Part shown: one piece after another, positions 74-53,577 of the stretch
Position numbering within the stretch: position 1 is the first letter of the stretch
Layout: each line of letters opens with the position of its first letter
Virus record (IMG/VR): IMGVR_UViG_3300045988_184100
Location: 33,784-97,783 of that record
From: a virus
Strand: one strand, 5' to 3'
Length of the DNA: 64,000 nt
Position numbers and translations under genes: made by a program
The notes under the pieces: generated by a model
The model's database searches: none
What the model was told of the DNA's origin: nothing
What the model saw: only the letters and a program-made list of their open reading frames with translations

Positions 74-172
74 TTCTTTATTTCCTTTCTTGTTTTTAAG
101 AATTTAAGAGGAATGTTTTGTCATTTCGACAAAACGCTCCACACAGCGGAGGGAAGAACTATAATTACGAAT

Positions 173-262
173 GGTAAAACCCTGTTATTTCAGGGTGGTG
201 TATACCAAAAGGAGACGCCATGAATTGGTATACAACCCTGTTATTTCCGGGTGGTGTATACC
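173..262 (-). CRISPR. CRISPR-like mini-array, copy L: 2 repeats (distal one degenerate) and one 20-nt spacer; no cas genes
   Basis: Repeat 2 (227-262) is GGTATACAACCCTGTTATTTCCGGGTGGTGTATACC. It has an 8-bp terminal inverted stem (GGTATACA/TGTATACC) and an inner ACCC/GGGT stem. Repeat 1 (173-206) is a 34-nt degenerate version. The spacer (207-226) is AAAAGGAGACGCCATGAATT. The same repeat family with different spacers recurs at 30831-30998. Strand is inferred, not proven. Confidence 0.45.
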
Positions 263-402
263 CAGCACAGGTATTCAGTTCCCAGAAAGTGCTGGTCGCC
301 ACCTCTCACATAACAAACCAGCCAACAGAGTATTCCTGCTTCCACGACGACCATGCATCTCCACAGGCGTTAATTCCGGCTATACCGTCCGTACTCGTTT
401 TT
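263..402 (-). ncRNA. Conserved structured RNA scaffold attached to the repeat array (copy L), in the omega-RNA-like position 3' of the tnpB-like gene
   Basis: This segment is about 90% identical to 30999-31137. It contains three hairpins: CAGCAC...GTGCTG, CTGGT...ACCAG and GAGTA...TACTC. Both copies are bounded by an A/T run. In minus orientation it sits between the tnpB stop (458) and the repeats. Confidence 0.4.
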
Positions 403-457
403 ATTTCCTTGGCAATGTGTGCAATCATTGCACACTTTATTTGCTCGCCACAGGGCT

Positions 458-1516
458 TTAGGCAGGATTCTGCTCGGAGGCCATGCGCTGACCTTCGGAC
501 AGCACGACCTGTGCCAGCGCCTCGTCATGCTTTGCTTCCGGTGCTACGGTGGCGGTATCTACATCCACCAGCGTGCGTCCAGCCCAGTCCGCCTTATACT
601 TTATCATACCGGTAAGTTCAGACCAGCCGGCATCGAGGATGCTTTTAGCCTGCTCATTGCCCTCAACTAAGGGCTTAACGGCCACCTTCTCAACGGCAAT
701 AAGCTGGTTTGCGTTGACAAGTTCACGGCTGATTTTATGCCGGTAGTCATTGCGCTGATTGGCAATATGCTCATGGACGCCGGCTACCTTGCGCCGCTGC
801 TTCTCGTAGTTGGCAGAGCCTTTTTTCTTACGGGATAGACGCCGCTGCTCACGGGCCAGCCGCTTTGCAGACTTGCTCAGATGCTTCGGGTTCTCATAGT
901 GAACGCCGTTGCTGTCAATAGCCAACTCCTTCAGGCCGAGACTGATGCCCACTTCGCCGTCCACAATAGGCAGCGTGTCTCGCTCTACTTTACAGCAGAC
1001 AGATGCCCAGTATTTTCCGGTAGCAGACCGAGAAATAGTGACCTCGCGGGGAGACCCTTCGATGGGGCGCCCCGTCCCTCGCCTGAGCTTGTTGATTTTC
1101 TGATACTGCCCTCCAAACGGAACTTGAATGTAATCGTCCGTCACATAGATAGTACCAGCGGTCGTAAAACTCTGGGTCGGATGGGACGCGCCCTTAAATT
1201 TGGGATAACCGGGCTTCTCCCCCGCTTTAATGCGGCGGAAGAACGCTTTTCGCGCCTCAAACAAATCAATGATGGCATATCTCTCTGCCGTACAGCCGCA
1301 GTCCGCAAGCCAAGGCCAGCGCTCCCGCATCTCCGTGAGAACCTTCATACAGTCGAAGGTCGTCATCTTCTCCTGTCGGCGCTCATAGATTTTGGAGGTT
1401 TGTTCAAGGAAATGATTCCACACAAACCGGCAGCATTTGAAAGTCTTCTCGATGATTTCGACCTGCTCATCAGTCGGGTAAATGCGATACTTAAACGCTT
1501 GAAATGTAGTTGGCAT
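458..1516 (-). CDS. tnpB: TnpB-family (IS200/IS605 OrfB) protein, 353 aa, apparently nuclease-inactivated: RuvC-I Asp replaced by Ser, RuvC-III and zinc-finger missing (TldR-like)
   Basis: The N-terminus MPTTFQAFKYRIYPTDEQ...CCRFVWN is the classic TnpB start. The RuvC-I region reads VGISLGLKELAIDSNG where canonical is GIDLG...SDG. RuvC-II is IAVEKV, so the Glu is kept. After ...GRTLVDVD the protein ends in 32 unrelated residues with no CxxC zinc finger and no D-NAA-NI motif. ATG at 1514-1516 with AAAGGA Shine-Dalgarno; the six-frame ORF extends to 1642 only through non-coding upstream. Confidence 0.8.
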   Translation of the reverse strand: MPTTFQAFKYRIYPTDEQVEIIEKTFKCCRFVWNHFLEQTSKIYERRQEKMTTFDCMKVLTEMRERWPWLADCGCTAERYAIIDLFEARKAFFRRIKAGEKPGYPKFKGASHPTQSFTTAGTIYVTDDYIQVPFGGQYQKINKLRRGTGRPIEGSPREVTISRSATGKYWASVCCKVERDTLPIVDGEVGISLGLKELAIDSNGVHYENPKHLSKSAKRLAREQRRLSRKKKGSANYEKQRRKVAGVHEHIANQRNDYRHKISRELVNANQLIAVEKVAVKPLVEGNEQAKSILDAGWSELTGMIKYKADWAGRTLVDVDTATVAPEAKHDEALAQVVLSEGQRMASEQNPA

Positions 1517-2753: not shown

Positions 2754-2782
2754 ATACTAACACGAACATATAAAAATGTCAA
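2754..2782 (-). promoter_or_regulatory. Sigma-A-type promoter of the tRNA operon (TTGACA-17-TAGTAT) with the conserved TTTATATGTTCGTG spacer
   Basis: RC reads TTGACATTTTTATATGTTCGTGTTAGTAT. It belongs to a family of near-identical promoters in this window. Confidence 0.5.
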
Positions 2783-7306: not shown

Positions 7307-7340
7307 AAAAAGAGGCAGGCGAAAGCCGCCTCTTTTTTCT
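7304..7340 (+). terminator. Intrinsic terminator ending the recG operon
   Basis: AGAGGCAGGCGAAAGCCGCCTCT followed by TTTTTTCT. Confidence 0.6.
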
Positions 7341-7349
7341 CTGCTATTG

Positions 7350-7484
7350 TTGACATTATAAATAATTGTGGTAGTATAATAGTATAATTACGAAGATATT
7401 TTTATAAGGAGACTTATCTCCGCTTCCAGTCACACCAAGTATTCAAGACAGTTATCCCAAGACAGGGATAGCTGTCTTTTTATA
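7350..7484 (+). promoter_or_regulatory. Island module copy 1: strong promoter (TTGACA-17-TAGTATAAT), conserved leader with a hairpin that sequesters an SD-like sequence, and an intrinsic terminator
   Basis: TTGACATTATAAATAATTGTGGTAGTATAATAGTATAATTACGAAGATATTTTTATAAGGAGACTTATCTCCG ... GACAGTTATCCC-AAGACA-GGGATAGCTGTC followed by TTTTT. Confidence 0.6.
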
Positions 7485-7527
7485 TATTTTTTTTACATTA
7501 CAACACAATAAGAAAGGAGAAAACATA

Positions 7528-10332: not shown

Positions 10333-10343
10333 ACAACAAGCCT

Positions 10344-10377
10344 AAAAAAAGAGCCGCTATGCGGCTCTTTTCTTTTG
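10344..10377 (+). terminator. Intrinsic terminator
   Basis: AAAAAAAGAGCCGCTATGCGGCTCTTTTCTTTTG. Confidence 0.6.
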
Positions 10378-10388
10378 CGCCGAAACCG

Positions 10389-10525
10389 TTGACATTATAA
10401 GGAAATGTGGTAGTATAGTAGTATAATTACGAAGATATTTTTATAAGGAGCTTTGTCTCCGTTTTCAGTCACATCATCACATTCAAGGCAGTTGTTCTCT
10501 TTTGAGAACGACTGTCTTTTTATAT
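10389..10525 (+). promoter_or_regulatory. Island module copy 2: promoter, leader and terminator
   Basis: Same promoter and leader as copy 1. The terminator stem GCAGTTGTTCTC/GAGAACGACTGTC covaries with the other copies. Confidence 0.6.
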
Positions 10526-10584
10526 ATTCACTACATTTTTGTTCCCATAAGACCTTAACACAGGCTGGGAGAAAGGAGAAAAAT

Positions 10585-14328: not shown

Positions 14329-14337
14329 CTCGAATCT

Positions 14338-14371
14338 AAAAAGAAGCTCCTTTTGGGGCTTCTTTTTTTTG
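14338..14371 (+). terminator. Intrinsic terminator
   Basis: AAGAAGCTCCTTTTGGGGCTTCTTTTTTTT. Confidence 0.6.
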
Positions 14372-14382
14372 CGCCGTTTCCG

Positions 14383-14516
14383 TTGACATTATAAAGAATT
14401 GTGGTAGTATAGTAGTATAATTACGAAGATATTTTTATAAGGAGATTTATCTCCGTTTTCAGTCACATCATCATATTCAAGACAGTTGTTCTCATTTGGG
14501 AACGACTGTCTTTTTA
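14383..14516 (+). promoter_or_regulatory. Island module copy 3: promoter, leader and terminator
   Basis: TTGACATTATAAAGAATTGTGGTAGTATAGTAGTATAAT ... GACAGTTGTTC-TCATTTGG-GAACGACTGTC followed by TTTTT. Confidence 0.6.
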
Positions 14517-14553
14517 TATATTCAGAACAAATAAAAACGAAAGGAGAAAACGC

Positions 14554-20507: not shown

Positions 20508-20531
20508 TCGCAAGATAAAAAACTAAATTTC

Positions 20532-20565
20532 AAAAGAAGCTCCTTCGGGAGCTTCTTTTTTTTAC
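20532..20565 (+). terminator. Intrinsic terminator
   Basis: AAAAGAAGCTCCTTCGGGAGCTTCTTTTTTTT. Confidence 0.6.
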
Positions 20566-20574
20566 GTTGCTGCT

Positions 20575-20712
20575 GTTGACAAAATAGCGAAACGTGGTAG
20601 TATAGTAGTATAATTACGAAGATATTTTTATAAGGAGTTTTATCTCCGTTTTTCAAGTCACATCATAAATTCAGGCAATCACTACCCTCTTCGGGCAGTG
20701 ATTGTCTTTTTC
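20575..20712 (+). promoter_or_regulatory. Island module copy 4: promoter, leader and terminator
   Basis: The promoter and leader are conserved. The terminator stem has a completely different sequence (GGCAATCACTACCC/GGGCAGTGATTGTC) but the pairing is preserved. Confidence 0.6.
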
Positions 20713-20779
20713 TATATATACATTTTATTTTGGTTTCCCGTAAGTCCTTATCACAGGCTGGGAGAAAGGAGAAAACATC

Positions 20780-28163: not shown

Positions 28164-30344
28164 TTAGGACGCCTCCTTCTGAGCATACCAGCTCACAAAT
28201 TTCGATACGTTGCGGGAATGAAGACTATGGACATCTTTGGCGAGCTTCCACTCGGACAGGTCTACCATCCAAGAGGGATGCTTCTCCGTAAAGCCGGGGC
28301 AAGCATGGTCAATGTATTCTTTCTCGGATGTCTCGCGCTGGCGGATGTGCTGCAGGGCCACGTTCAGGTACTTGATACCGTAGGCGTAATCCACGCACTT
28401 GCCGCCGATAATCCATCCACCGAGGTTCTTGGTATTGATGGCGTAAGTCAGCCACTCGGAGTTCATAAAAGCGAGGTTAATATATTCGTCGCGGAACACC
28501 TCGAAGTTGGAACGGGCGCGTTTCTTGCCCTCGTCATCATACCAACGGCGGTTTATGGACTCGCCCTTCTCCACAGATACGAAGAAATGCGGCTTAGGCT
28601 CCATGACAGTTTCGATGATTTCAGCGTCATCTGTGAGATTACTGCCATCGCCATATGTGGAGTAGCGAATGCCATTAAAGAAATAATAGGTGCGCTGCTC
28701 CGGTTCGTCATACTCCACCAGATTGATGGGATAGATGGCGCAGTCATCAACGGAACAGTCGTGGGTACGGTTGCGGTCTCCCCTGCCACGGTCATTCCAG
28801 TAAGGCCTATACCTGTATTCTCTCTCCGGAGTCAAAGAAAGAACGGTCAAGATACTATCACCCTTCTTTGCGTCAGGCTTGTTGCATCGCTCCACAATGT
28901 CTACAAAGCTGCCGTAGCGGTTGTCGGTCAACCAGCGGTCAGCCATGGAAAACACGACATACTCGGAGGACTTGGAGATTTTGACGCCAGCCGGCAGAGA
29001 AAGGATGTTGGAGCTATCCACCACACCCTGCAGGATATTGAACAGGAAGATTCTGGAAACCATTTCCACGACCATACTTCGTGCCTGTGAACGTTCCTCT
29101 TTGACACGCTGCTTCCGCTGGTATTCATCCTCCTGCCCGATATACTCCGTATTGACGCGGAAATCCTTGGGATTTACTTCCATAATGAAGTCATCTGTCA
29201 CATGGACTTCCTCCGGGTCAGTCCAACCGATATAGACATTTTCTCCGTTTCGGATAATGATACCGATGGTGTTCCCGTGGTAGATATTATAGCTATCCAG
29301 CATATTGCTCCACGCCTCATGTCCAAAGAAATGCTTGCCGGTCTTGCTGAGACGAACCAGTGCCACGCACTTCTCACTGGGAGCAAAGGTATCCAGCGCA
29401 ACAGGAGACGCTGCGAGAAACTCCTCGAAATACTTCAGCTTGCTTTCTTTCATGTTGTAAATGGAAGCAAGACGCCCCATCTCTTCATCGAGAAAACGGA
29501 GCTTCTGGAACAGGACGACCGGCTCCTTTTCCGGTGCGTTCCGGCCAGTGCGGATACGGGTAAAGTTGATTGTCTCACCCATGTAGCAGCGGATAGCATA
29601 AATCTGAGATTCCAACAGGTAAATCTGATTGTTCATCATTTCTACCTGTTCCTCCAGAGCCTCGCGTTTGGCGGACAGCTCTGCCATCAGTTTTTCCTTT
29701 TTCTGCTCCAAGGCTGCCATGGCACGCTCGACCTCTTCCTTGAGGGCGCGGAGTTCATCACTGGTTCCGTTCTTGGTATCTTCGATATTGGCTTTGAGGG
29801 CGTTCAGCTCCGTCTCACGGTCAGACAGGCCTTCACGCACCTGAGAGACCGAAAGAGACTCAGGCACGGATGCCGGCAGCGTCGATGAAGCACCGTGCGT
29901 TGCGAGGGCTCGCATCTCGCCCACGGACATTGCGGAATAGTCCTTGACCGGCACATACTCCGCCACCAGAGAGTCCGGCTGGTAGAGAAAGAACCTACGA
30001 CTGCCGAGGCCGACGACCATACCAATGCCCTCATAAATGCTATATACGTTGGCAGTCTGCTCATAGGTCTTACAGTAGTCGATGAACTCAGAAAGGTTCT
30101 TGAGGTAGTCCTCAATGCGTTTCCGCCACCATCTCTCATTAGTGTCACTATTATCTCGTGAGAGACTGGACAGGTCTGTGAGTCCAGAAAAGAGCGTTGC
30201 ATCGTCTCTGTCATTCTCTCTGATAATGTGGGTTTCCTCCTGTCGGGCCTTTTCAAAGCGCCATTCACGGCTTCTCGCCGCCCACTCATTCTTGTACGCC
30301 CCGATGTCATTAAAGCGCACCGTCCCCAATATGGTGTTCTTCAT
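28164..30344 (-). CDS. Large hypothetical protein (726 aa) with a central coiled-coil; no recognisable NTPase or nuclease motif
   Basis: ORF with GGTGAGGTGAAAGGA Shine-Dalgarno. Heptad-like region about residues 180-250. Confidence 0.5.
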   Translation of the reverse strand: MKNTILGTVRFNDIGAYKNEWAARSREWRFEKARQEETHIIRENDRDDATLFSGLTDLSSLSRDNSDTNERWWRKRIEDYLKNLSEFIDYCKTYEQTANVYSIYEGIGMVVGLGSRRFFLYQPDSLVAEYVPVKDYSAMSVGEMRALATHGASSTLPASVPESLSVSQVREGLSDRETELNALKANIEDTKNGTSDELRALKEEVERAMAALEQKKEKLMAELSAKREALEEQVEMMNNQIYLLESQIYAIRCYMGETINFTRIRTGRNAPEKEPVVLFQKLRFLDEEMGRLASIYNMKESKLKYFEEFLAASPVALDTFAPSEKCVALVRLSKTGKHFFGHEAWSNMLDSYNIYHGNTIGIIIRNGENVYIGWTDPEEVHVTDDFIMEVNPKDFRVNTEYIGQEDEYQRKQRVKEERSQARSMVVEMVSRIFLFNILQGVVDSSNILSLPAGVKISKSSEYVVFSMADRWLTDNRYGSFVDIVERCNKPDAKKGDSILTVLSLTPEREYRYRPYWNDRGRGDRNRTHDCSVDDCAIYPINLVEYDEPEQRTYYFFNGIRYSTYGDGSNLTDDAEIIETVMEPKPHFFVSVEKGESINRRWYDDEGKKRARSNFEVFRDEYINLAFMNSEWLTYAINTKNLGGWIIGGKCVDYAYGIKYLNVALQHIRQRETSEKEYIDHACPGFTEKHPSWMVDLSEWKLAKDVHSLHSRNVSKFVSWYAQKEAS

Positions 30345-30366
30345 GTCCTTTCACCTCACCCCAAAT

Positions 30367-30774
30367 TTAAGTTTTACAGTAGCGGATAAAGTCCTGTGCC
30401 GAGAACGGCAGATTATCGTATCCGCAGTCCTTCAAATAACGGGAGACAACAGCAGAACTCATACTGATACGTCCATCTCCCGATGCCTTCATATGCTGCA
30501 AGCAGATGTCAGCATAACCATCTACCACATCAAGGTGTTCCAGACACCACTTCTCTACGCGGCGCTTGCGGGCCGCCAGAGACCGCTGTTCGGGATGCGG
30601 CATCTTCTTGTAGGTGTATGCCTTTGCCGCCTTCTCGCGGCTTGTATAGCCGAAGCCTTGGGCATCATCCAATACCGCACCAGTCTTGGGCTGTATGACG
30701 ATGTAGCGAGGGTCATATTCAGCGGAAAGCTCCCGCGAGTAAACAACTTTGAAGTAATCAGCCATACAAAAAAT
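30367..30774 (-). CDS. Hypothetical protein (135 aa), first gene of the minus operon, 57 nt downstream of the right repeat array
   Basis: ATG (MIFCMADYF) after GGTGGAAGG. The ORF track starts at a TTG at 30804. Confidence 0.4.
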   Translation of the reverse strand: MFCMADYFKVVYSRELSAEYDPRYIVIQPKTGAVLDDAQGFGYTSREKAAKAYTYKKMPHPEQRSLAARKRRVEKWCLEHLDVVDGYADICLQHMKASGDGRISMSSAVVSRYLKDCGYDNLPFSAQDFIRYCKT

Positions 30775-30830: not shown

Positions 30831-30998
30831 GGTATAGAACCCTGTTATTTCTGGGTGATGTATACCTTGGGTCTCCTCATATATAACCACCGCCCCGGTA
30901 TATAACCCTGTTATTTCCGGGTGGTGTATACCGTATTCGGCAGGATTGTTCAAAACTGCAAAGGTATACAACCCTGTTGTTTCTGGGTGGTGTATACC
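30831..30998 (-). CRISPR. CRISPR-like mini-array, copy R: 3 repeats and 2 unique 30-nt spacers; orphan
   Basis: Repeats at 30831-30866, 30897-30932 and 30963-30998 belong to the same 36-nt family as copy L, with a few SNPs. Spacers are TTGGGTCTCCTCATATATAACCACCGCCCC and GTATTCGGCAGGATTGTTCAAAACTGCAAA. Confidence 0.45.
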
Positions 30999-31137
30999 CA
31001 GCACAGGTATTCAGTTCCCCAAAGTGCTGGTCGCCACCTCTCACGTGACTACCAACCAACAGAGTATTCCTGCTTCCACGACGACCATGCATCTCCACAG
31101 GCGTTAATTCCGGCTATACCGTCCGTACTTGTTTTTT
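30999..31137 (-). ncRNA. Conserved structured RNA scaffold (copy R), directly abutting the tRNA-Ser 3' CCA
   Basis: About 90% identical to 263-402. Substitutions are clustered in one internal segment (CACATAACAAACCAGCC versus CACGTGACTACCAACC). Confidence 0.4.
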
Positions 31138-31226
31138 TGGCGGAGAGAGTGGGAGTCGAACCCACGGATGCTTCCACATCGCCGGTTTTCAAGACCGGTG
31201 CCTTCAGCCGCTTGGCCATCTCTCCA
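31138..31226 (-). tRNA. tRNA-Ser (anticodon UGA), long variable arm, CCA encoded
   Basis: GGAGAGATGGCCAAGCGGCTGAAGGCACCGGTCTTGAAAACCGG ... GGGTTCGACTCCCACTCTCTCCGCCA. Confidence 0.85.
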
Positions 31227-33565: not shown

Positions 33566-33594
33566 ACTATAACACGAATATAAAATAATGTCAA
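33566..33594 (-). promoter_or_regulatory. Promoter (TTGACA-17-TATAGT) with the conserved TTTATATTCGTG spacer, driving the nuclease, flotillin and tRNA-Ser direction
   Basis: RC reads TTGACATTATTTTATATTCGTGTTATAGT. Confidence 0.5.
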
Positions 33595-41964: not shown

Positions 41965-41994
41965 AAGGGCTTATTTCTTCGATTTCATATTAGC

Positions 41995-42024
41995 ACGAAC
42001 ATAAAGTAATGTCAAGTACACGGA
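41995..42024 (-). promoter_or_regulatory. topB promoter (TTGACA-17-TAATAT) with the conserved TTTATGTTCGTG spacer
   Basis: RC reads TTGACATTACTTTATGTTCGTGCTAATAT. Confidence 0.5.
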
Positions 42025-42521
42025 GCGTAAAAAGGGTGGCTCATGTGCCAAAATCATTCAAGTCGTAAGGGAGAAAAGCAAAACGTCTAAAAACGTAAAA
42101 TTTGGTAAGAATATCTACATTTAGCACAAAAATGAGCAGAATCCTTTAACAAATGATTAAAAGATGTTACACGAAACTGTAACATCCCACAAATTAACAC
42201 AGCTTATATTAGGAATAATGTCAACACGAAAGACATGATTGTTCCAATTTTCACAAGTCGTAAACTTGACAAAATTATGTAATCGTGGTAGAGTGATATT
42301 GAATATGGAACATAAGCGCTGGCAGACGACTTTCACTGCCGCAGGAAGCACTTACTCCACTTTTGCGGCATAGAAGCAGCGGCTTGTCAGCGCTATTTCC
42401 ATGTACTCTTGCCAGCCCAATACGCGGGAGCAATATCTCGAATGGCGAACAAAACACGCCACCGTCATCGTTTTCAAAGGTAGAAAGGAAAAAGTAGCAG
42501 CGTAGAAGGAGGTCACGGGAA

Positions 42522-46105: not shown

Positions 46106-49100
46106 TTACTCGGCGCCATACTCCTTCTTGCGGCGGAACATGAACACCGCAGTGCCGCAGCAAGCAATGGCACTGAACGTACCCAGCATGGCCCACAGGC
46201 CGATGCCCTCATCGCCAGTCTGGACACTGTCGCGGAAATACACCGTCTGGGCACCGTCCATCAGGTCGTTGTGGGTAGCAATGACATTACCCGCCTCAGC
46301 ACGACCCTCATACAGAGTCTCGAATACCACGAGCGCATGGTCCTTCAGCTTGGATGCGTCGAACTTGAACGTAACATTCACAGCCCCGTTGGAGGACTTG
46401 GGCGTAAAGGTCGTGGTAGCCGTTACCAGATTCCCCTTATTGTCCTTGAGGGCAACACCGGAATCCTTATCCATCAGCGTACCAACCAGCACGTAGGTCT
46501 TGCCCACAGTCAGGCCGGTATAGTTGACGGTGTCCACGATTTTCACGTTCTTACCAGCAACGGAGTTCTTCTTCTCCTTGCCATCGAAGGTAGCGGTGGT
46601 GGAAATGCTCGGACCGGAATAGGTCGGGATGCGCTTGATGGTCACAGTCTGGTCAACATCGTTGATGTCGGCGTGAGTCGCGACCGTAGTACCATTGCGG
46701 GTCAGGGTCTCGAACACGACCAGCGTCTTACCGCCCAGAATGGATGCATCAAACACGAAACTCACATCCACAGTACCGTCAGAGGATTTGGCCTCGAACT
46801 CGGTAGTGGCGGTGATTTCCTTGTTGTTGCGGCCCAGAACAGGCTCACCTGTCGCCTTGTCCATCAGCTTACCGATTACGGTGTACTTATTGCCGGCAAT
46901 CAGGCCCTTATAGGACACGGTATCGACCAGCTCGACCTTGCTGTAGGCCCAGAATTCCTTCTTGCCATCAGCCGCGTTCTTAGCGGTGGTCTTGATTTCA
47001 GGGCTGTTGACAGTCACGGTCTGGTCAACATCGTTGATGTCGGCATGAACTGCGATTTCAATGTCCTTGTACTGCAGGGACTCGAATACAACGATAGACT
47101 GGCCACGCAGCAGAGATGCATCGAGCACGAAGAACACGTCAACGGTGCCATTGGACGCCTCAGCGGTGAAAGTAACGGAGGAGGTAATTTCCTTTCCGTC
47201 CTTATCCTTCAGTGGCTCGTTGGTAGCCTTGTTCATCAGCTTACCGGAAACAGTGTACTTCTCGCCAGCAATCAGGCCCTTATAGGACACGGTATCCTTG
47301 ATTTCAGCGCGGGCTTCGGGGTCGAGGGTCTTGCCGTTGGTGGCGTTGTTCACGGCCTTTGTACCGATTTCGGGAACGCCGATGGTGACGGTCTGCCCCT
47401 CATCGTTGATATCCTCGTGACTCACAAACACGGGTTTATTGGAGTCGCCGGGAACAATCTCGTTGCCCAGATACACACGCTCGAATACCACCAGAGACTT
47501 GCCGGCCAGCTTGGAAGCGTCAAAGACGAACTTCACATCCACCGTACCAGTGGCAGCTTCGGGAGTGAACACCTTGTAAGAGGTAACGGGGTCGCCGTTG
47601 GCATCGGTAACAGGCTTGCCGGTGGCCTTATCCATCAGCGTACCGATAGCGATGAACTCCTTACCCACGGGCATATTCTCGTAGGAGATGGTATCCACCA
47701 GAATCACATCAGCCAGAGGCATGAACTCCTTGCCTCCAACAGCGTTCTTGGCCGTGGTGCCAATCTTGGGATTCAGGATTACAACGGTCTGGTCAACATC
47801 GTTGATGTCAGCATGGGTAGCAACGACACGGTTGCCGCGCTTCAGGTCCTCGAAAACAACGATGGACTCGCCACCCAGCAGAGACGCATCAAAGGTGAAC
47901 TCCAGCTCCACAAAGCCAGTGAAGTCGGCCTCAGCCTTGAAGGTCTTAGAGGCGGTAATGCGATTACCCTCGGCGTCCAGCAGAGGCTCGCCGGTGGACT
48001 TAACCACCAGATATCCCTCGACCGTATAGGTCTTGTTGGGGATAACGTCGGTGCATTCCACCTTATCGACGATAGTGACGGTGGTGGACGGAACGATTTC
48101 CTTGTTGCCGTCCTTGTCGGTTGCAGTAGTCTTGACCTTGGGAGTCACCGCCTCGTCCTCGGCGATGATATTCACAGTCACCAGACCGGTCTCGGCATCC
48201 AGAGAAATGGTATCGGGCGTAACGCTGAAGGTAATCGGGGTATCCATCAGCTCATAACCCTTCGGGGGTACGATTTCGACCAGATGATAGTTCTCGCCGT
48301 AAGGCAGAACCAGCGGGGTCACAAAATAACCCTCATCATTGGTCTCGAATGTATCAATATAAGTTACCGTGGGGTAAGTGACCTTCTGGGACACCTTGTT
48401 CCCGTCAGGGTCGTAAATCTGGAACTTCGCGCCGCCCCAAGGAATGACCTCGCCGTCAAGCTCATCGACCTTCACAACGCGCAGGTACGCGGTAATAGGT
48501 CCGTTGTTGACAGCCAAGTCGTGATGGTCGTGGTCAACCTCGCCAACCAGAACGGTGAACTCAGGCGCGAGCCCCGCACCCTTATCGCCGGCCTTGGTCT
48601 GATGCACCACATAGGTGCCGTAGGGCAGCTCGATAGACTTGCCGCTGTAACCCAAGTCGTTGGTCGTCAGGATACCGCGCTCGTCATCCTTAGCGTCCTC
48701 GTAAGAGCCGGCGGACTGCAGCCAATACTTGAACTCTGCACCGCCCTCGAACTTAGCGGGACCGGAGGTTCCGTCGGAGATGAACTTGGTGATGGCGAAT
48801 GTGCCGCGATTGATGACCTCGACAGAGGTAATCTGGGGAGCAACGTTGTGTTCGATACGGTAGTTCTCCGGCTCGGCGCCAACGTGATACACGCCCTCAT
48901 CAATCTGATAGCCAGTGGGCGCCTTGATTTCACGGATGGTGTAATCATAGCCGCAGATGTACTCGTCAGTGGTAAACTTGCCGTCGCTGCCGATAACGTA
49001 CTCCTTCACCAGCTCGTCACCCTTATAGAGACCGTACACAGCACCCTCAAAGACACCATCGCCGCGAGGGATGTTGCCAGTCTCGGCGTCCGTCTTCTCC

Positions 49101-51856
49101 ACAGTGACCTTCCACTTCTTCAGTACGTTGGTCACAGCGGTGTCGGTAACTTTCTGGAACTCCACAACGAGACCTGTCTGCACGGCAGGAATAACATACT
49201 TCACCGCCGTATCGACTTCCTCCAGCGTGTAGTTGTTGCCAATCAGGACATCCTTGAAGATGGCAATACCGTCAGCGTTGGTGGTAGCAGTCAGGTCAAC
49301 AGCATCGCCGGAGATGGCAGTTCCATGCAGCCGGAAGGTAATGCCCTCGACCATGCCGTCCTCAGAGGTCTTGGTAACGCGCAGGTCGCCGCGCTTGAGC
49401 TTGTTGTAGACATTCACGGGGGTGGTGTTATCCAGAGTAACCTTCACGCCGTTTGTCACAGCGGGAACGATATACTTGGCAGCCGTGTTCACTTCCTCAA
49501 CGCTGTAGTTGTTGCCAATCAGAACGTTGTTGAAGGTGGCAACTCCGGCGTCATTGGTCACGGCGGTCATATCCACCGTCTCGCCGTTGATAGCAGTACC
49601 GGACAGACGGAACGTGATACCAGCGGCCTTGCCGTCCTCGGAGGTCTTCTTAACCTCAACGGCGCCGCGAGCCAGCTTATTATGGAAGTTCAAGCTGGTG
49701 GTGTTGTTGAGCGTGACGGTCACATTGCTCTGGACAGCGGGAACAACGTACCGCTCGGCGGTGTTGATTTCCTGTACGGTATAGTTATTACCGATAAGGA
49801 TTTCTCTGAACATGACGACACCGTTCTCGTCGGTAGAAGCAGTTTCATTGACTGCTGCACCGGAGATAGACGTACCGGTCAGCCGGAAGGTCATGCCTGC
49901 CACGAAGCCATCCTCGGAGGTCTTCGTGATTTTCAGATTGCCGCGAGCCAGCTTGTTCTCAAACTGAGCGGGGGTGCTGGTGTTGTACTCAACCACCACG
50001 CCAGCCTGCACCGCAGGAACAACATACTTCGCTGCGGTGTTGATTTCCTCCAGCTTATAGTTGTTGCCCACAGGAACATTATTGAAGGTAGCCACGCCGT
50101 TGGCATCCGTAACAGCCGTCATGTTGACAGCCGTACCTGCTGCGGAAGTGCCGGACAGACGGAAGGTGTGACCAGCAATCTGACCATCCTCTGAGGTCTT
50201 AGTCACCTTTACGGCGCCCTTCTTCAGCACGTTGCTGAAGTTCACCGTCTTAAAATCGCCGATTGCGATGTTTACGGACTGGGGCTGCGTCGGGATGTAG
50301 TTGTCAGGTGTATTCTCCGTTACGGTATAAGTACCGGGCTGCAAATCGGTAATGGCAATCTTACCGTTTGCACCAGTGGTCACAGTCTTGCTGTAACCGT
50401 TGGGGCCCGTGACCGTGAAACTCACGCCGCCTACTTTGCCATCCTCGGAGGTCTTGGCAATGTTCAAATCACCGGTGGTTTTCGTGACCTTGGCGCGGAC
50501 GTAGGCAGTAACGGGGTCGGGTCGCCCGTTCAGCGCAACACAATTCTGCTTGCCTCCACCCGCGACGAGGAGATAAGCATTGATGCTGTCGGGGTCAATC
50601 GCATTTCCCTCGGAAGGGCGAGATACAATCCCGTTCAACATACTCTTCGCAGCTTCCGGAGTGGCTGTAATTGTCAGATTGTTTCCACTTTGGAAGGTGC
50701 TCACACCAGACAGACTGAACTCAAAGTCTTCAAAATTTCTCAAGACTCTGTTTGTATCTGTTCTTGTAGCCGTCCACGAAGTACCATCCCACGTGAGTTC
50801 GATATCCTTCGATGTGTTGTATGGATATGCAACAGCAAAGCTGGGGATGGTGCTCTGCTGGTTAATCTTTTCCCAGATATAATCATGTGCTGCCTTAATA
50901 GGTTCTGCAACAGAGGCGTCATAGGAATGGCCGGGACCCACAAACAGGTCACTCAAGTCACTGTAGCCGCCAACAATTTCCCAGATAACCTCTTGTGTGG
51001 CACACCACGCATAAGTGCCGTTGCCGGCATACCAAAGCAACGTCGAGTCGTCTACCCCACCGTAGCCATAGGCAAGTGCGAGGCGGACTCGGTTGTTCTC
51101 CCAATAACTGCTGGCATCAACGGAGGTTCCGGAGCCGGGGGCATTCTTATGAGGCTCAATACAGTAAGCAGGCTGGCCGTTGAAGTATTTCACAACGGCA
51201 CTGGAGTAGGGGGCAAACTCGGCCATCCACTTGCTGTTATAACTCATGTCATCACCGGTCGTAATGGTTCCGGAGGAACGAGCGGGGGCTCTCATTGCAC
51301 TGATAGCTCTGGGTGCGTTCTGCGCTGACCCATAAAGGACGGAAACGCTCACAGGAGTTTCCTCTCCAGCATAAGGGTCACGAAGTCCATCCTCTGCCGA
51401 GGGGTCTTCTCCTGCCTCCTTACTCTCTTCCTTTTTCGCCTCTGCGGGCTCTCCATTCTTTACCTCGTCAGAAGAGGATGATGTCTCCGCCTTGTCAGGC
51501 TTTTCAGACATATCGGGCTTCTGCTCCGCTTCTGTCCCCACATTGGTCTTTGCGTCTCCCGCAACATCCTTGGCATCAGCTTTGCCGCCATTTTCCGTTG
51601 AAGGCGTTTCCGCATCGCCAACGCTGTTGCCAGTACCCGCAACATCGGTGCCCTTGTCGTCCGCCGATTCGCCAGTGGGCAGCGCATCGGCATCCTCGGC
51701 GCTTGGCGTATCTGCCGTCTGCTCGACAACTGTACTGACGACGGAAGTGTTGCCTTCACCCGCATCGTCGGCATACACAGAGGTCGGAAGCATTCCGACC
51801 ACCATCACCAGTGTCAACAGCATTGCAACAACGCCACGCATCTTCTTGTGTTTCAT
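46106..51856 (-). CDS. Giant sortase-anchored surface adhesin (1916 aa): signal peptide, acidic region, adhesive N-domain, SpaA/CnaB-like domains, about 9 Thr-Gln ester-bond Ig-like stalk repeats, C-terminal sorting signal
   Basis: MKHKKMRGVVAMLLTLVMVVGML signal. Repeated KTSEDG...ATTDANGVATF modules. Repeated H-x-D-x-x-D-x-x-Q-T-V motifs (for example ATHADINDVDQTVT). C-terminal VQTGDEG, hydrophobic segment, RRKKEY. Confidence 0.75.
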   Translation of the reverse strand: MKHKKMRGVVAMLLTLVMVVGMLPTSVYADDAGEGNTSVVSTVVEQTADTPSAEDADALPTGESADDKGTDVAGTGNSVGDAETPSTENGGKADAKDVAGDAKTNVGTEAEQKPDMSEKPDKAETSSSSDEVKNGEPAEAKKEESKEAGEDPSAEDGLRDPYAGEETPVSVSVLYGSAQNAPRAISAMRAPARSSGTITTGDDMSYNSKWMAEFAPYSSAVVKYFNGQPAYCIEPHKNAPGSGTSVDASSYWENNRVRLALAYGYGGVDDSTLLWYAGNGTYAWCATQEVIWEIVGGYSDLSDLFVGPGHSYDASVAEPIKAAHDYIWEKINQQSTIPSFAVAYPYNTSKDIELTWDGTSWTATRTDTNRVLRNFEDFEFSLSGVSTFQSGNNLTITATPEAAKSMLNGIVSRPSEGNAIDPDSINAYLLVAGGGKQNCVALNGRPDPVTAYVRAKVTKTTGDLNIAKTSEDGKVGGVSFTVTGPNGYSKTVTTGANGKIAITDLQPGTYTVTENTPDNYIPTQPQSVNIAIGDFKTVNFSNVLKKGAVKVTKTSEDGQIAGHTFRLSGTSAAGTAVNMTAVTDANGVATFNNVPVGNNYKLEEINTAAKYVVPAVQAGVVVEYNTSTPAQFENKLARGNLKITKTSEDGFVAGMTFRLTGTSISGAAVNETASTDENGVVMFREILIGNNYTVQEINTAERYVVPAVQSNVTVTLNNTTSLNFHNKLARGAVEVKKTSEDGKAAGITFRLSGTAINGETVDMTAVTNDAGVATFNNVLIGNNYSVEEVNTAAKYIVPAVTNGVKVTLDNTTPVNVYNKLKRGDLRVTKTSEDGMVEGITFRLHGTAISGDAVDLTATTNADGIAIFKDVLIGNNYTLEEVDTAVKYVIPAVQTGLVVEFQKVTDTAVTNVLKKWKVTVEKTDAETGNIPRGDGVFEGAVYGLYKGDELVKEYVIGSDGKFTTDEYICGYDYTIREIKAPTGYQIDEGVYHVGAEPENYRIEHNVAPQITSVEVINRGTFAITKFISDGTSGPAKFEGGAEFKYWLQSAGSYEDAKDDERGILTTNDLGYSGKSIELPYGTYVVHQTKAGDKGAGLAPEFTVLVGEVDHDHHDLAVNNGPITAYLRVVKVDELDGEVIPWGGAKFQIYDPDGNKVSQKVTYPTVTYIDTFETNDEGYFVTPLVLPYGENYHLVEIVPPKGYELMDTPITFSVTPDTISLDAETGLVTVNIIAEDEAVTPKVKTTATDKDGNKEIVPSTTVTIVDKVECTDVIPNKTYTVEGYLVVKSTGEPLLDAEGNRITASKTFKAEADFTGFVELEFTFDASLLGGESIVVFEDLKRGNRVVATHADINDVDQTVVILNPKIGTTAKNAVGGKEFMPLADVILVDTISYENMPVGKEFIAIGTLMDKATGKPVTDANGDPVTSYKVFTPEAATGTVDVKFVFDASKLAGKSLVVFERVYLGNEIVPGDSNKPVFVSHEDINDEGQTVTIGVPEIGTKAVNNATNGKTLDPEARAEIKDTVSYKGLIAGEKYTVSGKLMNKATNEPLKDKDGKEITSSVTFTAEASNGTVDVFFVLDASLLRGQSIVVFESLQYKDIEIAVHADINDVDQTVTVNSPEIKTTAKNAADGKKEFWAYSKVELVDTVSYKGLIAGNKYTVIGKLMDKATGEPVLGRNNKEITATTEFEAKSSDGTVDVSFVFDASILGGKTLVVFETLTRNGTTVATHADINDVDQTVTIKRIPTYSGPSISTTATFDGKEKKNSVAGKNVKIVDTVNYTGLTVGKTYVLVGTLMDKDSGVALKDNKGNLVTATTTFTPKSSNGAVNVTFKFDASKLKDHALVVFETLYEGRAEAGNVIATHNDLMDGAQTVYFRDSVQTGDEGIGLWAMLGTFSAIACCGTAVFMFRRKKEYGAE
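50489..50700. repeat. Near-identical DNA tract shared by the two adhesin paralogs (matches 63710-63920), consistent with recent gene conversion
   Basis: A 66-nt perfect identity (ACCTTGGCGCGGACGTAGGCAGTAACGGGGTCGGGTCGCCCGTTCAGCGCAACACAATTCTGCTT) is followed by about 140 nt with only scattered mismatches. Confidence 0.6.
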
Positions 51857-53324: not shown

Positions 53325-53412
53325 TTCAAAATTTGCTCAGGGAATGTAATTAAATAATAGACCGTGACGAGGTTTAAGCTGTGGAAAACTTGACATTATT
53401 TTTGATGTGCTT

Positions 53413-53441
53413 ACAATAGCACGATTATAAAAAAATGTCAA
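53413..53441 (-). promoter_or_regulatory. Promoter (TTGACA-17-TATTGT) with the conserved spacer family
   Basis: RC reads TTGACATTTTTTTATAATCGTGCTATTGT. Confidence 0.4.
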
Positions 53442-53577
53442 GTGTGGTTTTTGGAAAATTTTTCGTTTTCTCATCTTAAACCACAAAGCCTTGTGCCTCG
53501 CAAAGACGGAAACCCCTTATATTGCAACGGTTTTGCACGCTTCCCTTCCTTCTGTTTTCAATCAAATAATTTTTTCA

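What the first reader, a model, noticed from the sequence alone, without database searches (positions are those of the whole stretch)
30831..31138. Orphan second copy of the scaffold-plus-array RNA with three repeats and two unique 30-nt spacers, fused with no gap to the CCA end of tRNA-Ser
The scaffold 30999-31137 is about 90% identical to 263-402. The divergence is confined to one internal stem region, which is the pattern expected for covarying structure rather than for an att duplication. It is followed by three repeats of the same 36-nt family and two unique spacers (TTGGGTCTCCTCATATATAACCACCGCCCC and GTATTCGGCAGGATTGTTCAAAACTGCAAA). No tnpB lies next to this copy. On the minus strand the scaffold begins immediately after the encoded CCA of tRNA-Ser(UGA): ...TCTCTCCGCCA|AAAAAAACAAGTACGG. 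The left copy likewise begins AAATAAAAACGAGTACGG after the tnpB hairpin. This arrangement suggests co-transcription with the flotillin/tRNA-Ser unit and release of the guide-like RNA by RNase Z or RNase P cleavage. Spacer lengths differ between copies (20 versus 30 nt).
Basis: partly seen in the sequence, partly recalled or inferred. Interest (0 to 1): 0.8.

Follow-up and report, generated by a model that had tools for sequence, protein, structure and literature searches.

The report
Stand-alone scaffold-led mini-CRISPR array
A second copy of a transposon-derived guide-RNA scaffold, with no protein gene beside it, sits directly after a serine tRNA gene and carries a small CRISPR array that gains phage-matching spacers in related strains; it most likely serves a TnpB-like protein 30 kb away that appears unable to cut DNA.

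Summary
Window 30999-31137 is 94% identical to 263-402. It abuts the CCA end of tRNA-Ser(UGA) and is followed by three 36-nt repeats and two 30-nt spacers.

Comparative data show what it is:
- It is one of at least 7 dispersed "scaffold + mini-CRISPR array" modules in this human-gut lineage. Every array found has its own scaffold copy.
- The scaffold is a structured RNA on the window's minus strand.
- Scaffold plus first repeat is homologous to the omega/right-end RNA of resident active IS605 TnpB elements. The CRISPR repeat is that RNA's last hairpin.
- The "tnpB" beside the left copy is a fixed, strongly conserved 352-aa derivative (dN/dS 0.07). It has RuvC-I D->S and a deleted zinc finger, so it looks like TldR and is probably nuclease-dead.
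- The tRNA-Ser array differs between strains (2 to 9 spacers). New spacers appear at the scaffold-proximal end. Family spacers match phage or mobile-element contigs perfectly.

No cas1/cas2 was seen, no PAM emerged, and expression is untested. The tRNA link is specific to this site.

Verdict: a new variant of TnpB-derived (TranC / type V-U-like) CRISPR systems.

The parts
31138..31225 (-). tRNA-Ser(UGA) with encoded CCA. Its 3' end abuts the scaffold.
   Evidence: ARAGORN and Rfam tRNA at 58.9 bits. The junction ...CTCTCTCCGCCA|AAAAAACAAGTACGG is conserved in 13 or more related contigs.
30999..31137 (-). Scaffold copy R: a structured RNA derived from omega/right-end RNA (tracr-like), with no adjacent effector gene.
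   Evidence: 94% identical to 263-402. RNAalifold gives -40.7 kcal/mol for the sense strand and -14.1 for the antisense strand. There are 306 G-U cells on the sense strand against 8 on the antisense strand. Covariance model R1 built from the family hits the region just 3' of active tnpB genes.
30963..30998 (-). Repeat R1, fused to the scaffold. It corresponds to the last hairpin of the omega RNA. This repeat is the one duplicated when spacers are added.
   Evidence: In L006, seven identical copies of this repeat variant precede the older repeats. It is homologous to the 3' hairpin of the IS605 right end.
30933..30962 (-). Spacer A (RNA sense UUUGCAGUUUUGAACAAUCCUGCCGAAUAC), positioned like a natural single-guide.
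   Evidence: It is shared by several strains and also occurs in an array at another site (L034). No protospacer was found.
30897..30932 (-). Repeat R2.
30867..30896 (-). Spacer Z (RNA sense GGGGCGGUGGUUAUAUAUGAGGAGACCCAA). It is the oldest spacer and is shared by all arrays of this type.
   Evidence: No protospacer was found.
30831..30866 (-). Repeat R3, the distal and degenerate one (3 mismatches).
458..1516 (-). Presumed effector: a 352-aa domesticated TnpB derivative resembling TldR. It has RuvC-I D->S and a deleted zinc finger.
   Evidence: Pfam finds OrfB_IS605 plus HTH but no Zn ribbon. ISDra2 TnpB matches at E 1e-49. The alignment shows GISLGL in place of GIDVGL and a 28-aa deletion. 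Gene order is fixed. dN/dS is 0.07.
417..435 (.). Hairpin GTGTGCAATCATTGCACAC between the effector stop codon and scaffold L. It recurs before scaffolds at two other sites. On the plus strand it is followed by TTTATTT.
263..402 (-). Scaffold copy L, adjacent to the effector gene.
171..262 (-). Left mini-array: repeat 227-262, 20-nt spacer 207-226, degenerate repeat 171-206.
   Evidence: A near-identical strain (L002) has an extra 30-nt spacer plus repeat at the scaffold-proximal end.
33566..33594 (-). Consensus sigma-70-like promoter (TTGACA-17-TATAGT, with TG) upstream of the endonuclease-flotillin-tRNA-Ser-scaffold-array series.
   Evidence: This is a consensus match only. A sister promoter at 2782->2754 precedes the tRNA cluster, effector gene and scaffold.

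Best explanation
Window 30831-31137 is a self-contained guide-RNA module of a TnpB-derived CRISPR-like system.

**What the module is.** The 139-nt scaffold plus the first 36-nt repeat is the equivalent of a complete TnpB omega (right-end) RNA. The repeat is that RNA's terminal hairpin. Reiteration of the hairpin with 30-nt inserts produced a small CRISPR array.

**How it is probably made and used (inferred).**
- The module is transcribed on the minus strand, at this site probably as the tail of the endonuclease-flotillin-tRNA-Ser transcript.
- The first spacer is then presented as a natural single-guide RNA: scaffold, hairpin, guide.
- Later repeat-spacer units would pair with a scaffold in trans, as a split tracrRNA:crRNA.
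- The RNA is used in trans by the only family protein consistently linked to these scaffolds, the 352-aa TnpB derivative at 458-1516.
- That protein is probably nuclease-dead, so it would bind rather than cut targets. The outcome would be silencing or exclusion of phages and mobile elements, as with Cas12m, Cas12c or TldR.

**Shown here:** the anatomy, the RNA strand and structure, the homology to omega RNA, the multi-copy dispersal, polarised spacer turnover, phage protospacers, the catalytic-site lesions, and purifying selection on the protein.

**Inferred only:** transcription, processing, use in trans by that protein, and binding without cleavage.
For: - **Anatomy:** confirmed at the stated coordinates.
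- **One scaffold per array:** every array in 60 or more related loci has its own scaffold. There are 88 units at 7 or more genomic sites, and about 7 units on one 134-kb contig.
- **Strand and structure:** the sense-strand consensus fold is -40.7 kcal/mol with 47 pairs. The antisense fold is -14.1 kcal/mol with 23 pairs. 98% of cells are paired, with 306 G-U cells on the sense strand against 8 on the antisense strand. Compensatory AU<->GC and CG<->UA changes occur.
- **Omega RNA homology:** the alignment is collinear with the DNA just 3' of active IS605 tnpB genes, at z of about 5 against shuffles. Covariance model R1 hits there at E 2e-4 to 8e-4, on the tnpB strand, in three loci.
- **Spacer turnover at the tRNA-Ser locus:** arrays read [A,Z], [A,B,Z], [C,A',Z] and [5 new,C,A,D,Z]. 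The first repeat is duplicated and the distal repeat is degenerate. The same polarity is seen at three other sites.
- **Protospacers:** 31/31 and 29/30 matches in phage contig MT835962.1, and 30/30 matches in three IMG/VR contigs. These lie in or next to integrase, methyltransferase-like and endolysin genes, on contigs that also carry tail genes.
- **Effector:** RuvC-I D->S and a zinc-finger deletion are conserved in all three clusters of the clade. The chromosomal context is fixed. dN/dS is 0.07.
- **Co-occurrence:** the effector gene and the tRNA-Ser module lie on one contig in the window and in ERZ809074 NODE-113.
Against: - There is no expression or processing data.
- No PAM/TAM emerges from five protospacers.
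- Neither of the window's own two spacers has a known target.
- No cas1/cas2 or other adaptation gene was seen within about 10 kb of any module. How spacers are acquired is therefore unexplained.
- Loss of nuclease activity is inferred from sequence only. RuvC-II E and RuvC-III D are retained.
- An unseen active paralogue elsewhere on the replicon cannot be excluded.
- A plus-strand promoter-like site (138-165) and a plus-strand terminator (417-435) bracket the left module in antisense.
- The covariance-model E-values are rough.
Confidence: 0.7

Rival explanations
1. The arrays, this one included, are guide stores for a different, catalytically active Cas12/TranC-type effector encoded elsewhere on the replicon, probably with cas1-cas2. 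On this view the 352-aa protein is a side branch, for example a regulator that uses only its own adjacent guide.
For: Spacers turn over with the classic leader-proximal polarity and match phages. That behaviour is usual for interference-competent systems with an adaptation module, and none was seen locally. The fixed 20-nt spacer beside the effector gene looks like a TldR-type guide.
Against: About 600 kb of related loci were recovered through the repeat, the scaffold or neighbouring genes. In that sequence, the only TnpB-family genes next to scaffolds are this clade. The other copies are ordinary IS605 tnpB genes whose omega RNA is far more diverged. The arrays next to the effector gene also gain spacers.
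Confidence: 0.17
2. The 139-nt block is only a conserved DNA leader (promoter plus integration signal) of ordinary CRISPR arrays, not a functional RNA scaffold. Its resemblance to the sequence 3' of the TnpB-like gene reflects array duplication.
For: New spacers enter next to this block, as they do at a leader. All arrays share it.
Against: Substitutions among 48 copies preserve helices on one strand only, through G-U and compensatory changes. The block is collinear with, and homologous to, TnpB omega RNA on the tnpB strand. It is not AT-rich, and no sigma-70-like promoter was found inside it.
Confidence: 0.06
3. The two copies are direct repeats created by integration of a roughly 30-kb mobile element (att duplication), or the right copy is an inert relic of a decayed IS/TnpB element.
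For: The two copies are direct repeats 30.7 kb apart. The right one lies at a tRNA 3' end, a classic integration site. The region downstream of the array varies between strains (L009).
Against: The duplicated segment does not include any tRNA sequence. The gene order RecG-tRNAs-effector is conserved across lineages. Modules occur at 7 or more unrelated sites. The array is dynamic, not decaying.
Confidence: 0.03
4. The functional transcript is on the plus strand, running from array to scaffold complement and ending at the hairpin or T-run. It would act as an antisense or regulatory RNA.
For: At the left copy there is a plus-strand promoter-like site (138-165) and a plus-strand terminator (417-435). 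The right copy ends in T7 on the plus strand.
Against: The plus-strand consensus fold is weak, at -14.1 kcal/mol. On that strand the G-U pairs become A-C mismatches. TnpB-lineage guide RNAs carry the guide 3' of the scaffold and lie on the effector's strand (established knowledge; Altae-Tran 2023, PMC10691335).
Confidence: 0.04

Closest known systems
TranC (transposon-CRISPR intermediates; Jin et al., Cell 2025). The paper is not held in the library; it is known here from reviews and preprints read.
   Same: Both involve a TnpB-size protein of recent IS605 descent with short CRISPR arrays of 32-38-nt repeats and no nearby cas1/cas2. In both, the guide RNA is an omega/right-end RNA functionally divided into a scaffold part and a repeat-spacer part, and both omega-type and CRISPR-type guides are available.
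   Different: The protein here is only weakly similar to LaTranC (E 5e-12, over the RuvC part only). It carries RuvC-I D->S and lacks the zinc finger, so it is probably not a nuclease. Every array keeps a full scaffold fused in cis. The modules are dispersed at 7 or more sites, most of them without a protein gene.
TldR (TnpB-like nuclease-dead repressors; Wiegand et al. 2023/2024; Xiao et al. 2026 preprint).
   Same: Both are domesticated, non-mobile TnpB homologues with a lost RuvC residue and a C-terminal loss. In both, the guide-RNA scaffold lies just 3' of the gene. The expected activity is binding without cleavage.
   Different: TldRs use a single fixed guide that matches a host promoter (fliC or oppA). 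The TldR paper describes no arrays or orphan guides. Here the guides lie in CRISPR arrays that turn over and match phages. No host target was found in about 600 kb of related sequence.
Type V CRISPR effectors with no or impaired DNA cleavage (Cas12m, Cas12c, Cas12k) and the array-only V-U groups, including V-U24 with a non-canonical RuvC-I (Altae-Tran et al. 2023, PMC10691335).
   Same: All are TnpB/Cas12-family proteins with a downstream CRISPR array and no adaptation genes. Some interfere by binding rather than cutting. V-U24 shares the RuvC-I anomaly.
   Different: This protein is much smaller (352 aa) and is about 50% identical to active IS605 TnpBs. There is no separate tracrRNA gene, because the scaffold is fused to each array. 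Identity with V-U24 could not be checked, because no supplement is held.
Stand-alone omega RNAs acting in trans with OMEGA effectors (Altae-Tran et al. 2021, as summarised in PMC10691335).
   Same: Both are effector-less copies of the guide-RNA scaffold elsewhere in the genome that extend the set of targets.
   Different: Known stand-alone omega RNAs carry one fixed guide defined by their flank. This one carries an expandable CRISPR array.

Membership tests
CRISPR array | Three or more direct repeats of constant length, separated by unique spacers of near-constant length. | tested here: met
   There are three 36-nt repeats and two 30-nt spacers. Across the family, 69 unique spacers were found, mostly 30 nt.
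CRISPR array | Spacer content differs between close strains, with polarised gain at one end. | tested here: met
   The tRNA-Ser arrays hold 2 to 9 spacers. New units appear next to the scaffold, the first repeat is duplicated, and the distal repeat is degenerate. The same is seen at three other sites.
CRISPR array | Spacers match mobile genetic elements. | tested here: met
   Five spacers of the family match phage or MGE contigs: three perfectly, one at 29/30, and one shortened derivative of that spacer. The two spacers in the window itself have no match.
CRISPR-Cas system (adaptive) | An adaptation module (cas1-cas2) in the locus or genome. | tested here: inconclusive
   No adaptation gene was seen in the window ORFs tested or within about 10 kb of modules. 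Whole genomes were not available.
TnpB omega RNA / right-end RNA | A structured RNA encoded at or beyond the 3' end of tnpB, on the same strand, with the guide at its 3' end. | tested here: met
   The left copy starts 56 nt after the stop codon on the same strand. Structure is specific to that strand. The unit is homologous to the region 3' of active tnpB genes. No Rfam family matches.
TnpB (active IS200/IS605 nuclease) | An intact RuvC D-E-D triad and zinc-finger (TNB) domain. | tested here: not met
   RuvC-I is Ser (GISLGL). 28 aa including CxxC...CxxC are deleted. E and the third D are kept. There is no PF07282 hit.
TnpB (active IS200/IS605 nuclease) | Mobile: multiple copies, transposon ends, and often tnpA. 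| tested here: not met
   The gene is single-copy in the same RecG-tRNA context in three lineages, and no tnpA is nearby.
TldR | A non-mobile TnpB homologue with an inactivated RuvC and a C-terminal loss. | tested here: met
   with purifying selection at dN/dS 0.07.
TldR | A single adjacent guide complementary to a host promoter, and repression of that gene. | tested here: not met
   The guides are in arrays that turn over and match phages. No host match was found in the window or in related loci. Repression is not testable here.
TranC | A TnpB-lineage protein associated with a CRISPR array whose repeat derives from the right-end RNA. | tested here: met
TranC | RNA-guided DNA cleavage (an active RuvC). 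| tested here: not met
   At the sequence level only: RuvC-I D->S and zinc-finger deletion. No biochemistry was possible.
TranC | Membership of a published TranC clade. | not testable with these tools
   The Cell 2025 paper and its data are not held. LaTranC is only distantly similar.

The most novel reading that the evidence does not exclude
A 352-aa, nuclease-dead TnpB derivative runs a genuinely adaptive CRISPR-like system. Its memory is spread over many self-contained 'single-guide plus array' modules, each with a full omega-RNA scaffold fused in cis to a growing array, and some hitch-hiking on tRNA operons. On this reading, spacers are acquired without a dedicated local Cas1-Cas2, either in trans or by an unknown route. 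Protection comes from binding, not cutting. It would be a living 'unsplit' intermediate between omega RNA and tracrRNA/crRNA, and the smallest CRISPR effector known.
Probability: 0.3. Interest if true: 0.9.

Novelty: new variant of a known kind. Interest (0 to 1): 0.72.

Why it matters
**Origin of CRISPR arrays.** This system sits between transposon guide RNAs and CRISPR. The CRISPR repeat can still be recognised as the last hairpin of a TnpB omega RNA. The whole scaffold is still attached to each array, and the arrays already behave like CRISPR, with polarised gain of phage spacers. That makes the proposed origin of type V arrays, by reiteration of the 3' end of the omega RNA, directly testable in a natural system.

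**Binding versus cutting.** Phage-directed, renewable guides are paired here with an effector that has apparently lost its nuclease. This raises the question of how binding alone protects, or which partner does the damage.

**Spacer acquisition.** It also raises the question of who installs the spacers.

**Practical use.** A 352-aa programmable DNA binder with a natural single-guide RNA would be a very compact tool.

**Annotation.** Protein-less scaffold-array modules, such as this one behind a tRNA, are invisible to cas-gene-centred CRISPR finders.

Tried and rejected
- **att or island duplication.** Rejected: RecG and conserved gene order lie between the copies, the duplicated segment contains no tRNA sequence, and there are 7 or more module sites.
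- **Plus-strand RNA.** Rejected on consensus folding and G-U asymmetry. Single-sequence folding was uninformative, with z of -1.9 and -1.5.
- **Rfam.** No family matches the scaffold, at gathering or at permissive thresholds.
- **GTDB representative genomes.** Two scans, one with a scaffold 25-mer and one with the repeat pattern, found nothing. The organism is therefore unnamed.
- **INPHARED and PLSDB.** A 25-kb window segment matched only tRNA.
- **Host or self targets.** None of the guides, including the tails after the last repeats, had a target in the window or in related loci. The exceptions are a 12-nt identity to a promoter family and one 27/30 hit in L063.
- **PAM/TAM.** No consensus emerged from five protospacers, on either flank or in either orientation.
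- **Genes next to the orphan array** (132 aa, 726 aa, HD, VWA and others). No cas, defence or clear phage identity was found.
- **nhmmer with the scaffold profile.** It did not reach the IS605 omega RNAs. Only the covariance model and the shuffle-tested local alignment did.
- **IMG/VR hit for spacer A.** It turned out to be the same tRNA-Ser array on a 135-kb contig labelled viral, not a protospacer.
- **V-U24.** Whether this clade is V-U24 of Altae-Tran 2023 could not be checked, because no supplement is held.
Full report
**1. The observation**

The sequence is as described.
- tRNA-Ser(UGA) occupies 31138-31225 on the minus strand and encodes its CCA.
- With no gap, the minus strand continues AAAAAACAAGTACGG... 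into a 139-nt block (31137->30999). This block is 94% identical to 402->263.
- Three 36-nt repeats (30963-98, 30897-932, 30831-66) and two 30-nt spacers follow.
- The left copy lies 56 nt after the stop codon of a TnpB-like ORF, behind a hairpin. It has two repeats and a 20-nt spacer.
- No TnpB-like ORF is near the right copy.

**2. The partner gene is not an active tnpB**
- The ORF at 458-1516 (352 aa from the likely ATG) hits OrfB_IS605 and its HTH domain in Pfam, but not the Zn-ribbon domain.
- Its best solved relative is ISDra2 TnpB (E 1e-49). LaTranC matches only weakly (5e-12).
- I aligned it with its nearest relatives, which are full-length TnpBs of about 370 aa and about 50% identity. 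The clade shows GISLGL where those have GIDVGL, so the RuvC-I Asp is replaced by Ser. It also has a 28-residue deletion that removes the CxxC...CxxC zinc finger. The RuvC-II Glu and RuvC-III Asp remain.
- Three 90%-identity clusters make up the clade, with 370, 147 and 1 members. The only name any source gives them is 'putative transposase'.
- The gene sits in the same RecG / tRNA-Glu-Thr-Thr-Gly context in all three lineages.
- It evolves under strong purifying selection: dN/dS is 0.07 against the 87%-identity lineage.
- It is therefore a domesticated, functional and probably nuclease-dead TnpB derivative of the kind called TldR.

**3. The 'orphan' is one of a family of modules**
- A scan of public metagenome contigs with the repeat pattern returned 44 human-gut loci.
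- I combined these with contigs retrieved through the flotillin gene and the 132-aa neighbouring gene. The combined set contains 88 scaffold units, and every array is preceded by its own scaffold copy.
- By upstream context there are at least seven sites: next to the effector gene; two more 1-3 kb downstream of it; after tRNA-Ser; after two different terminators or gene ends; and after a copy of the hairpin.
- One 134-kb contig carries about seven units, including both the effector-linked unit and the tRNA-Ser unit. The window's left edge probably cuts off further units.
- Some spacers occur at different sites in different strains. Spacer A of this window is also found in a hairpin-site array in L034, which points to exchange between arrays.

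**4. It is a real, dynamic CRISPR array**

All the contigs compared here share an identical flotillin protein. Their tRNA-Ser arrays read as follows:

| Contig(s) | Spacers, scaffold-proximal first |
|---|---|
| window, L004, L009 | A, Z |
| L003 | A, B, Z |
| L007 | C, A', Z |
| L006 | five new spacers, C, A, D, Z |

- New units always sit next to the scaffold and carry exact copies of the first repeat. Older repeats differ slightly, and the distal repeat is degenerate.
- The same polarity is seen at the effector-adjacent site and at two other sites.
- A variant lineage (L005/L008/L010/L013-17) has a decayed three-repeat array at this site, followed by a second, diverged scaffold.

**5. Targets**
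- Of 69 unique spacers, five have protospacers in mobile-element contigs.
- One spacer matches at 31/31 and another at 29/30 in a human-faecal phage contig, MT835962.1. A shortened derivative of the second spacer also matches there. These sites lie in and next to an integrase gene.
- One spacer matches at 30/30 in an IMG/VR contig, inside a methyltransferase-like gene.
- One spacer matches at 30/30 in two IMG/VR contigs, right next to an endolysin gene. One of these two contigs (L071) also encodes tail proteins.
- Two of the matching spacers come from the tRNA-Ser array of L006.
- The window's own spacers A and Z found nothing. The single IMG/VR hit for A was the array itself.
- The five protospacers give no shared flanking motif.
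- No guide matches the window or related host loci, apart from a 27/30 hit in L063.

**6. The scaffold is an RNA on the minus strand, and it is an omega RNA**
- I aligned 48 distinct scaffold-plus-first-repeat sequences. RNAalifold, run separately on each strand, gives -40.7 kcal/mol and 47 pairs for the sense strand (window minus). It gives -14.1 kcal/mol and 23 pairs for the antisense strand.
- In the sense structure, 98% of cells are standard pairs, with 306 G-U cells. Only 8 would be G-U in the mirror image. That test is biased towards the strand used for prediction, which is why the independent folds matter.
- Several helices vary through G-C/G-U/A-U changes, and one stem shows AU<->GC and CG<->UA compensation. 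The differences between the window's two copies fall in that helix.
- The DNA just 3' of resident, intact IS605 tnpB genes (L010, L014, L059) aligns collinearly with scaffold plus repeat. The alignment runs from ...TACGG...AGCCG.AA.T.ACGCCTGTGGAGA... to ...AAGGTTGAATATCC at the element's right end.
- Alignment scores are 4.4 to 5.1 SD above dinucleotide shuffles.
- A covariance model of the family hits exactly there, on the tnpB strand, at E 2e-4 to 8e-4. These E-values are rough.
- The 36-nt CRISPR repeat therefore corresponds to the terminal hairpin of the omega RNA, just before the guide.
- By eye, the scaffold's invariant GGUAUA can pair with the repeat's 3' UAUACC. In the IS605 homologue the corresponding segments are GGAUG and UAUCC, so two positions are swapped in a compensatory way. 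This fits the pseudoknot known from TnpB omega RNA. It is an inference and was not tested statistically.

**7. Transcription**
- A consensus promoter (TTGACA-17-TATAGT, with TG) lies at 33594->33566. It sits ahead of the endonuclease, flotillin, tRNA-Ser and the module, all on the minus strand.
- No intrinsic terminator is predicted before the array.
- A sister promoter at 2782->2754 precedes the tRNA cluster, the effector gene and the left module.
- Co-transcription with the tRNA is thus plausible at this site.
- Most modules are not next to tRNAs, so tRNA-processing enzymes cannot be the general maturation route.
- RNase Z is an unlikely candidate at a CCA-encoding tRNA (established knowledge).
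- An antisense promoter/terminator pair brackets the left module and remains unexplained.

**8. Mechanism proposed**
- *Shown:* the module's anatomy, its strand, its omega-RNA ancestry, its dispersal, spacer turnover, phage matches, the effector's lesions and the constraint on the effector.
- *Inferred:* the transcript yields a natural single-guide RNA (scaffold, hairpin, spacer 1). It also yields repeat-spacer units that need a scaffold in trans, which is the 'functional RNA split' described for TranC.
- *Inferred:* the 352-aa protein loads these RNAs in trans from all modules. Lacking RuvC-I Asp and the zinc finger, it binds rather than cuts, silencing or excluding phages and other mobile elements.
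- *Unexplained:* how 30-nt spacers are installed. No cas1/cas2 was seen within about 10 kb of any module or among the window ORFs tested.

**9. Comparison with known systems**
- It works like a TranC / type V-U system: a recent TnpB derivative, short arrays, no adaptation genes, and a repeat derived from the omega RNA.
- It resembles the stand-alone omega RNAs that act in trans.
- Its protein resembles TldR.
- It fails one defining feature of each family. Unlike TranC or TnpB, its nuclease site is not intact. Unlike TldR, it has no single host-promoter guide.
- Dead or impaired type V effectors (Cas12m, Cas12c, Cas12k, and V-U24 with its odd RuvC-I) are the nearest functional precedents. Whether this clade is already listed as V-U24 or as a TranC clade could not be checked.
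- I know of no description of arrays that each keep a cis-fused full scaffold, are scattered as protein-less modules, and include one fused to a tRNA gene. This rests on my own knowledge and the searches.

**10. Verdict**
- The finding is real and most of its interpretation holds.
- It is best filed as a new variant of TnpB-derived CRISPR-like systems, not as a new category.
- The main uncertainties are expression, which protein uses the RNA, whether that protein is truly inactive, how spacers are acquired, and what kind of replicon this is.
- On the replicon: many ORFs have no Pfam match, no contig in the look-ups made exceeds about 230 kb, and IMG/VR labels one related contig viral.

Noticed in passing
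window 7303-7496, 10342-10535, 14336-14529, 20529-20722: There are four near-identical elements of about 194 nt. Each has the upstream gene's terminator, then TTGACA...TATAAT, then a leader with two hairpins, the second followed by a T-run. Each precedes a plus-strand operon of ORFs with no Pfam hits (only one of eight tested has a PHROG hit, a family of unknown function). No Rfam family matches. This looks like a shared promoter/attenuator regulon.
   Followed up: partly
window 159-171 versus the -10/TSS region of the four elements above (e.g. 10421-10432): The sequence just after the last repeat of the left module (TTCGTAATTATAG...) shares 12 consecutive bases with the -10/start region of that promoter family. 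It could be a fixed TldR-type guide against those promoters. It could equally be just a similar plus-strand promoter facing the array.
   Followed up: partly
window 138-165 (+) and 417-435 (+): A plus-strand promoter-like site and a plus-strand intrinsic terminator bracket the left scaffold-array module in antisense orientation. The same hairpin precedes scaffolds at two other sites in related contigs.
   Followed up: no
window 2754-2782 (-), 33566-33594 (-), also 41985-42032 and 53411-53458: A family of 48-nt repeats contains near-consensus extended sigma-70-like promoters. Two of them head the transcription units that end in the two scaffold-array modules.
   Followed up: partly
L033 5930-7399; L072/L073/L074 11260-12744: An IscB-like gene of about 490 aa (Pfam RRXRR, E 7e-51) lies among the modules. 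In the sister lineage it is inserted inside the last codons of the dead-TnpB gene, separating that gene from its scaffold by about 1.8 kb.
   Followed up: partly
L010 3056-4174, L014/L015/L016 ~921-2042, L073 16522-17640: An intact IS605 tnpB (372 aa, with Zn ribbon) is present or absent between strains. The N-terminal half of the P0003 form of the dead protein (L001) looks converted from this IS copy.
   Followed up: partly
L072 9903-9964: In the sister lineage, a 60-nt remnant of the scaffold's 5' part lies between tRNA-Gly and the start of the dead-TnpB gene.
   Followed up: no
whole window; L068: The nature of the replicon is unclear.
- All ten ORFs tested between 5.1 and 20.5 kb lack Pfam hits.
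- tRNA clusters, a type IA topoisomerase, a PemK-like toxin (seen in related loci), a VWA/CobT-like protein and giant surface proteins are present.
- No related contig in the look-ups made exceeds about 230 kb.
- IMG/VR labels as viral a 135-kb contig that carries the same tRNA-Ser array.
- There is no match in INPHARED or PLSDB, and the module's scaffold and repeat patterns are absent from GTDB representatives.

It may be a large mobile element rather than a chromosome.
   Followed up: partly
window 46106-51856 (-) and 53633-63967 (-): Two giant ORFs (1916 aa and 3444 aa) are built of many diverged repeats of about 276 nt and about 375 nt. They are presumably surface adhesins. Sortase-like genes lie near the modules in related loci.
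   Followed up: no
L063 565-594: Spacer B of the L003 tRNA-Ser array matches at 27/30 a non-array site on a contig of the same lineage that also carries modules. This may be a resident element or an escaped target.
   Followed up: no
window 28164-30765 (-): The genes immediately downstream of the orphan array (132 aa, a 726-aa coiled-coil protein, and small Cys-rich proteins) are conserved next to it in all strains but have no recognisable family. Further downstream the region varies between strains, for example a type I restriction HsdR gene in L009.
   Followed up: partly
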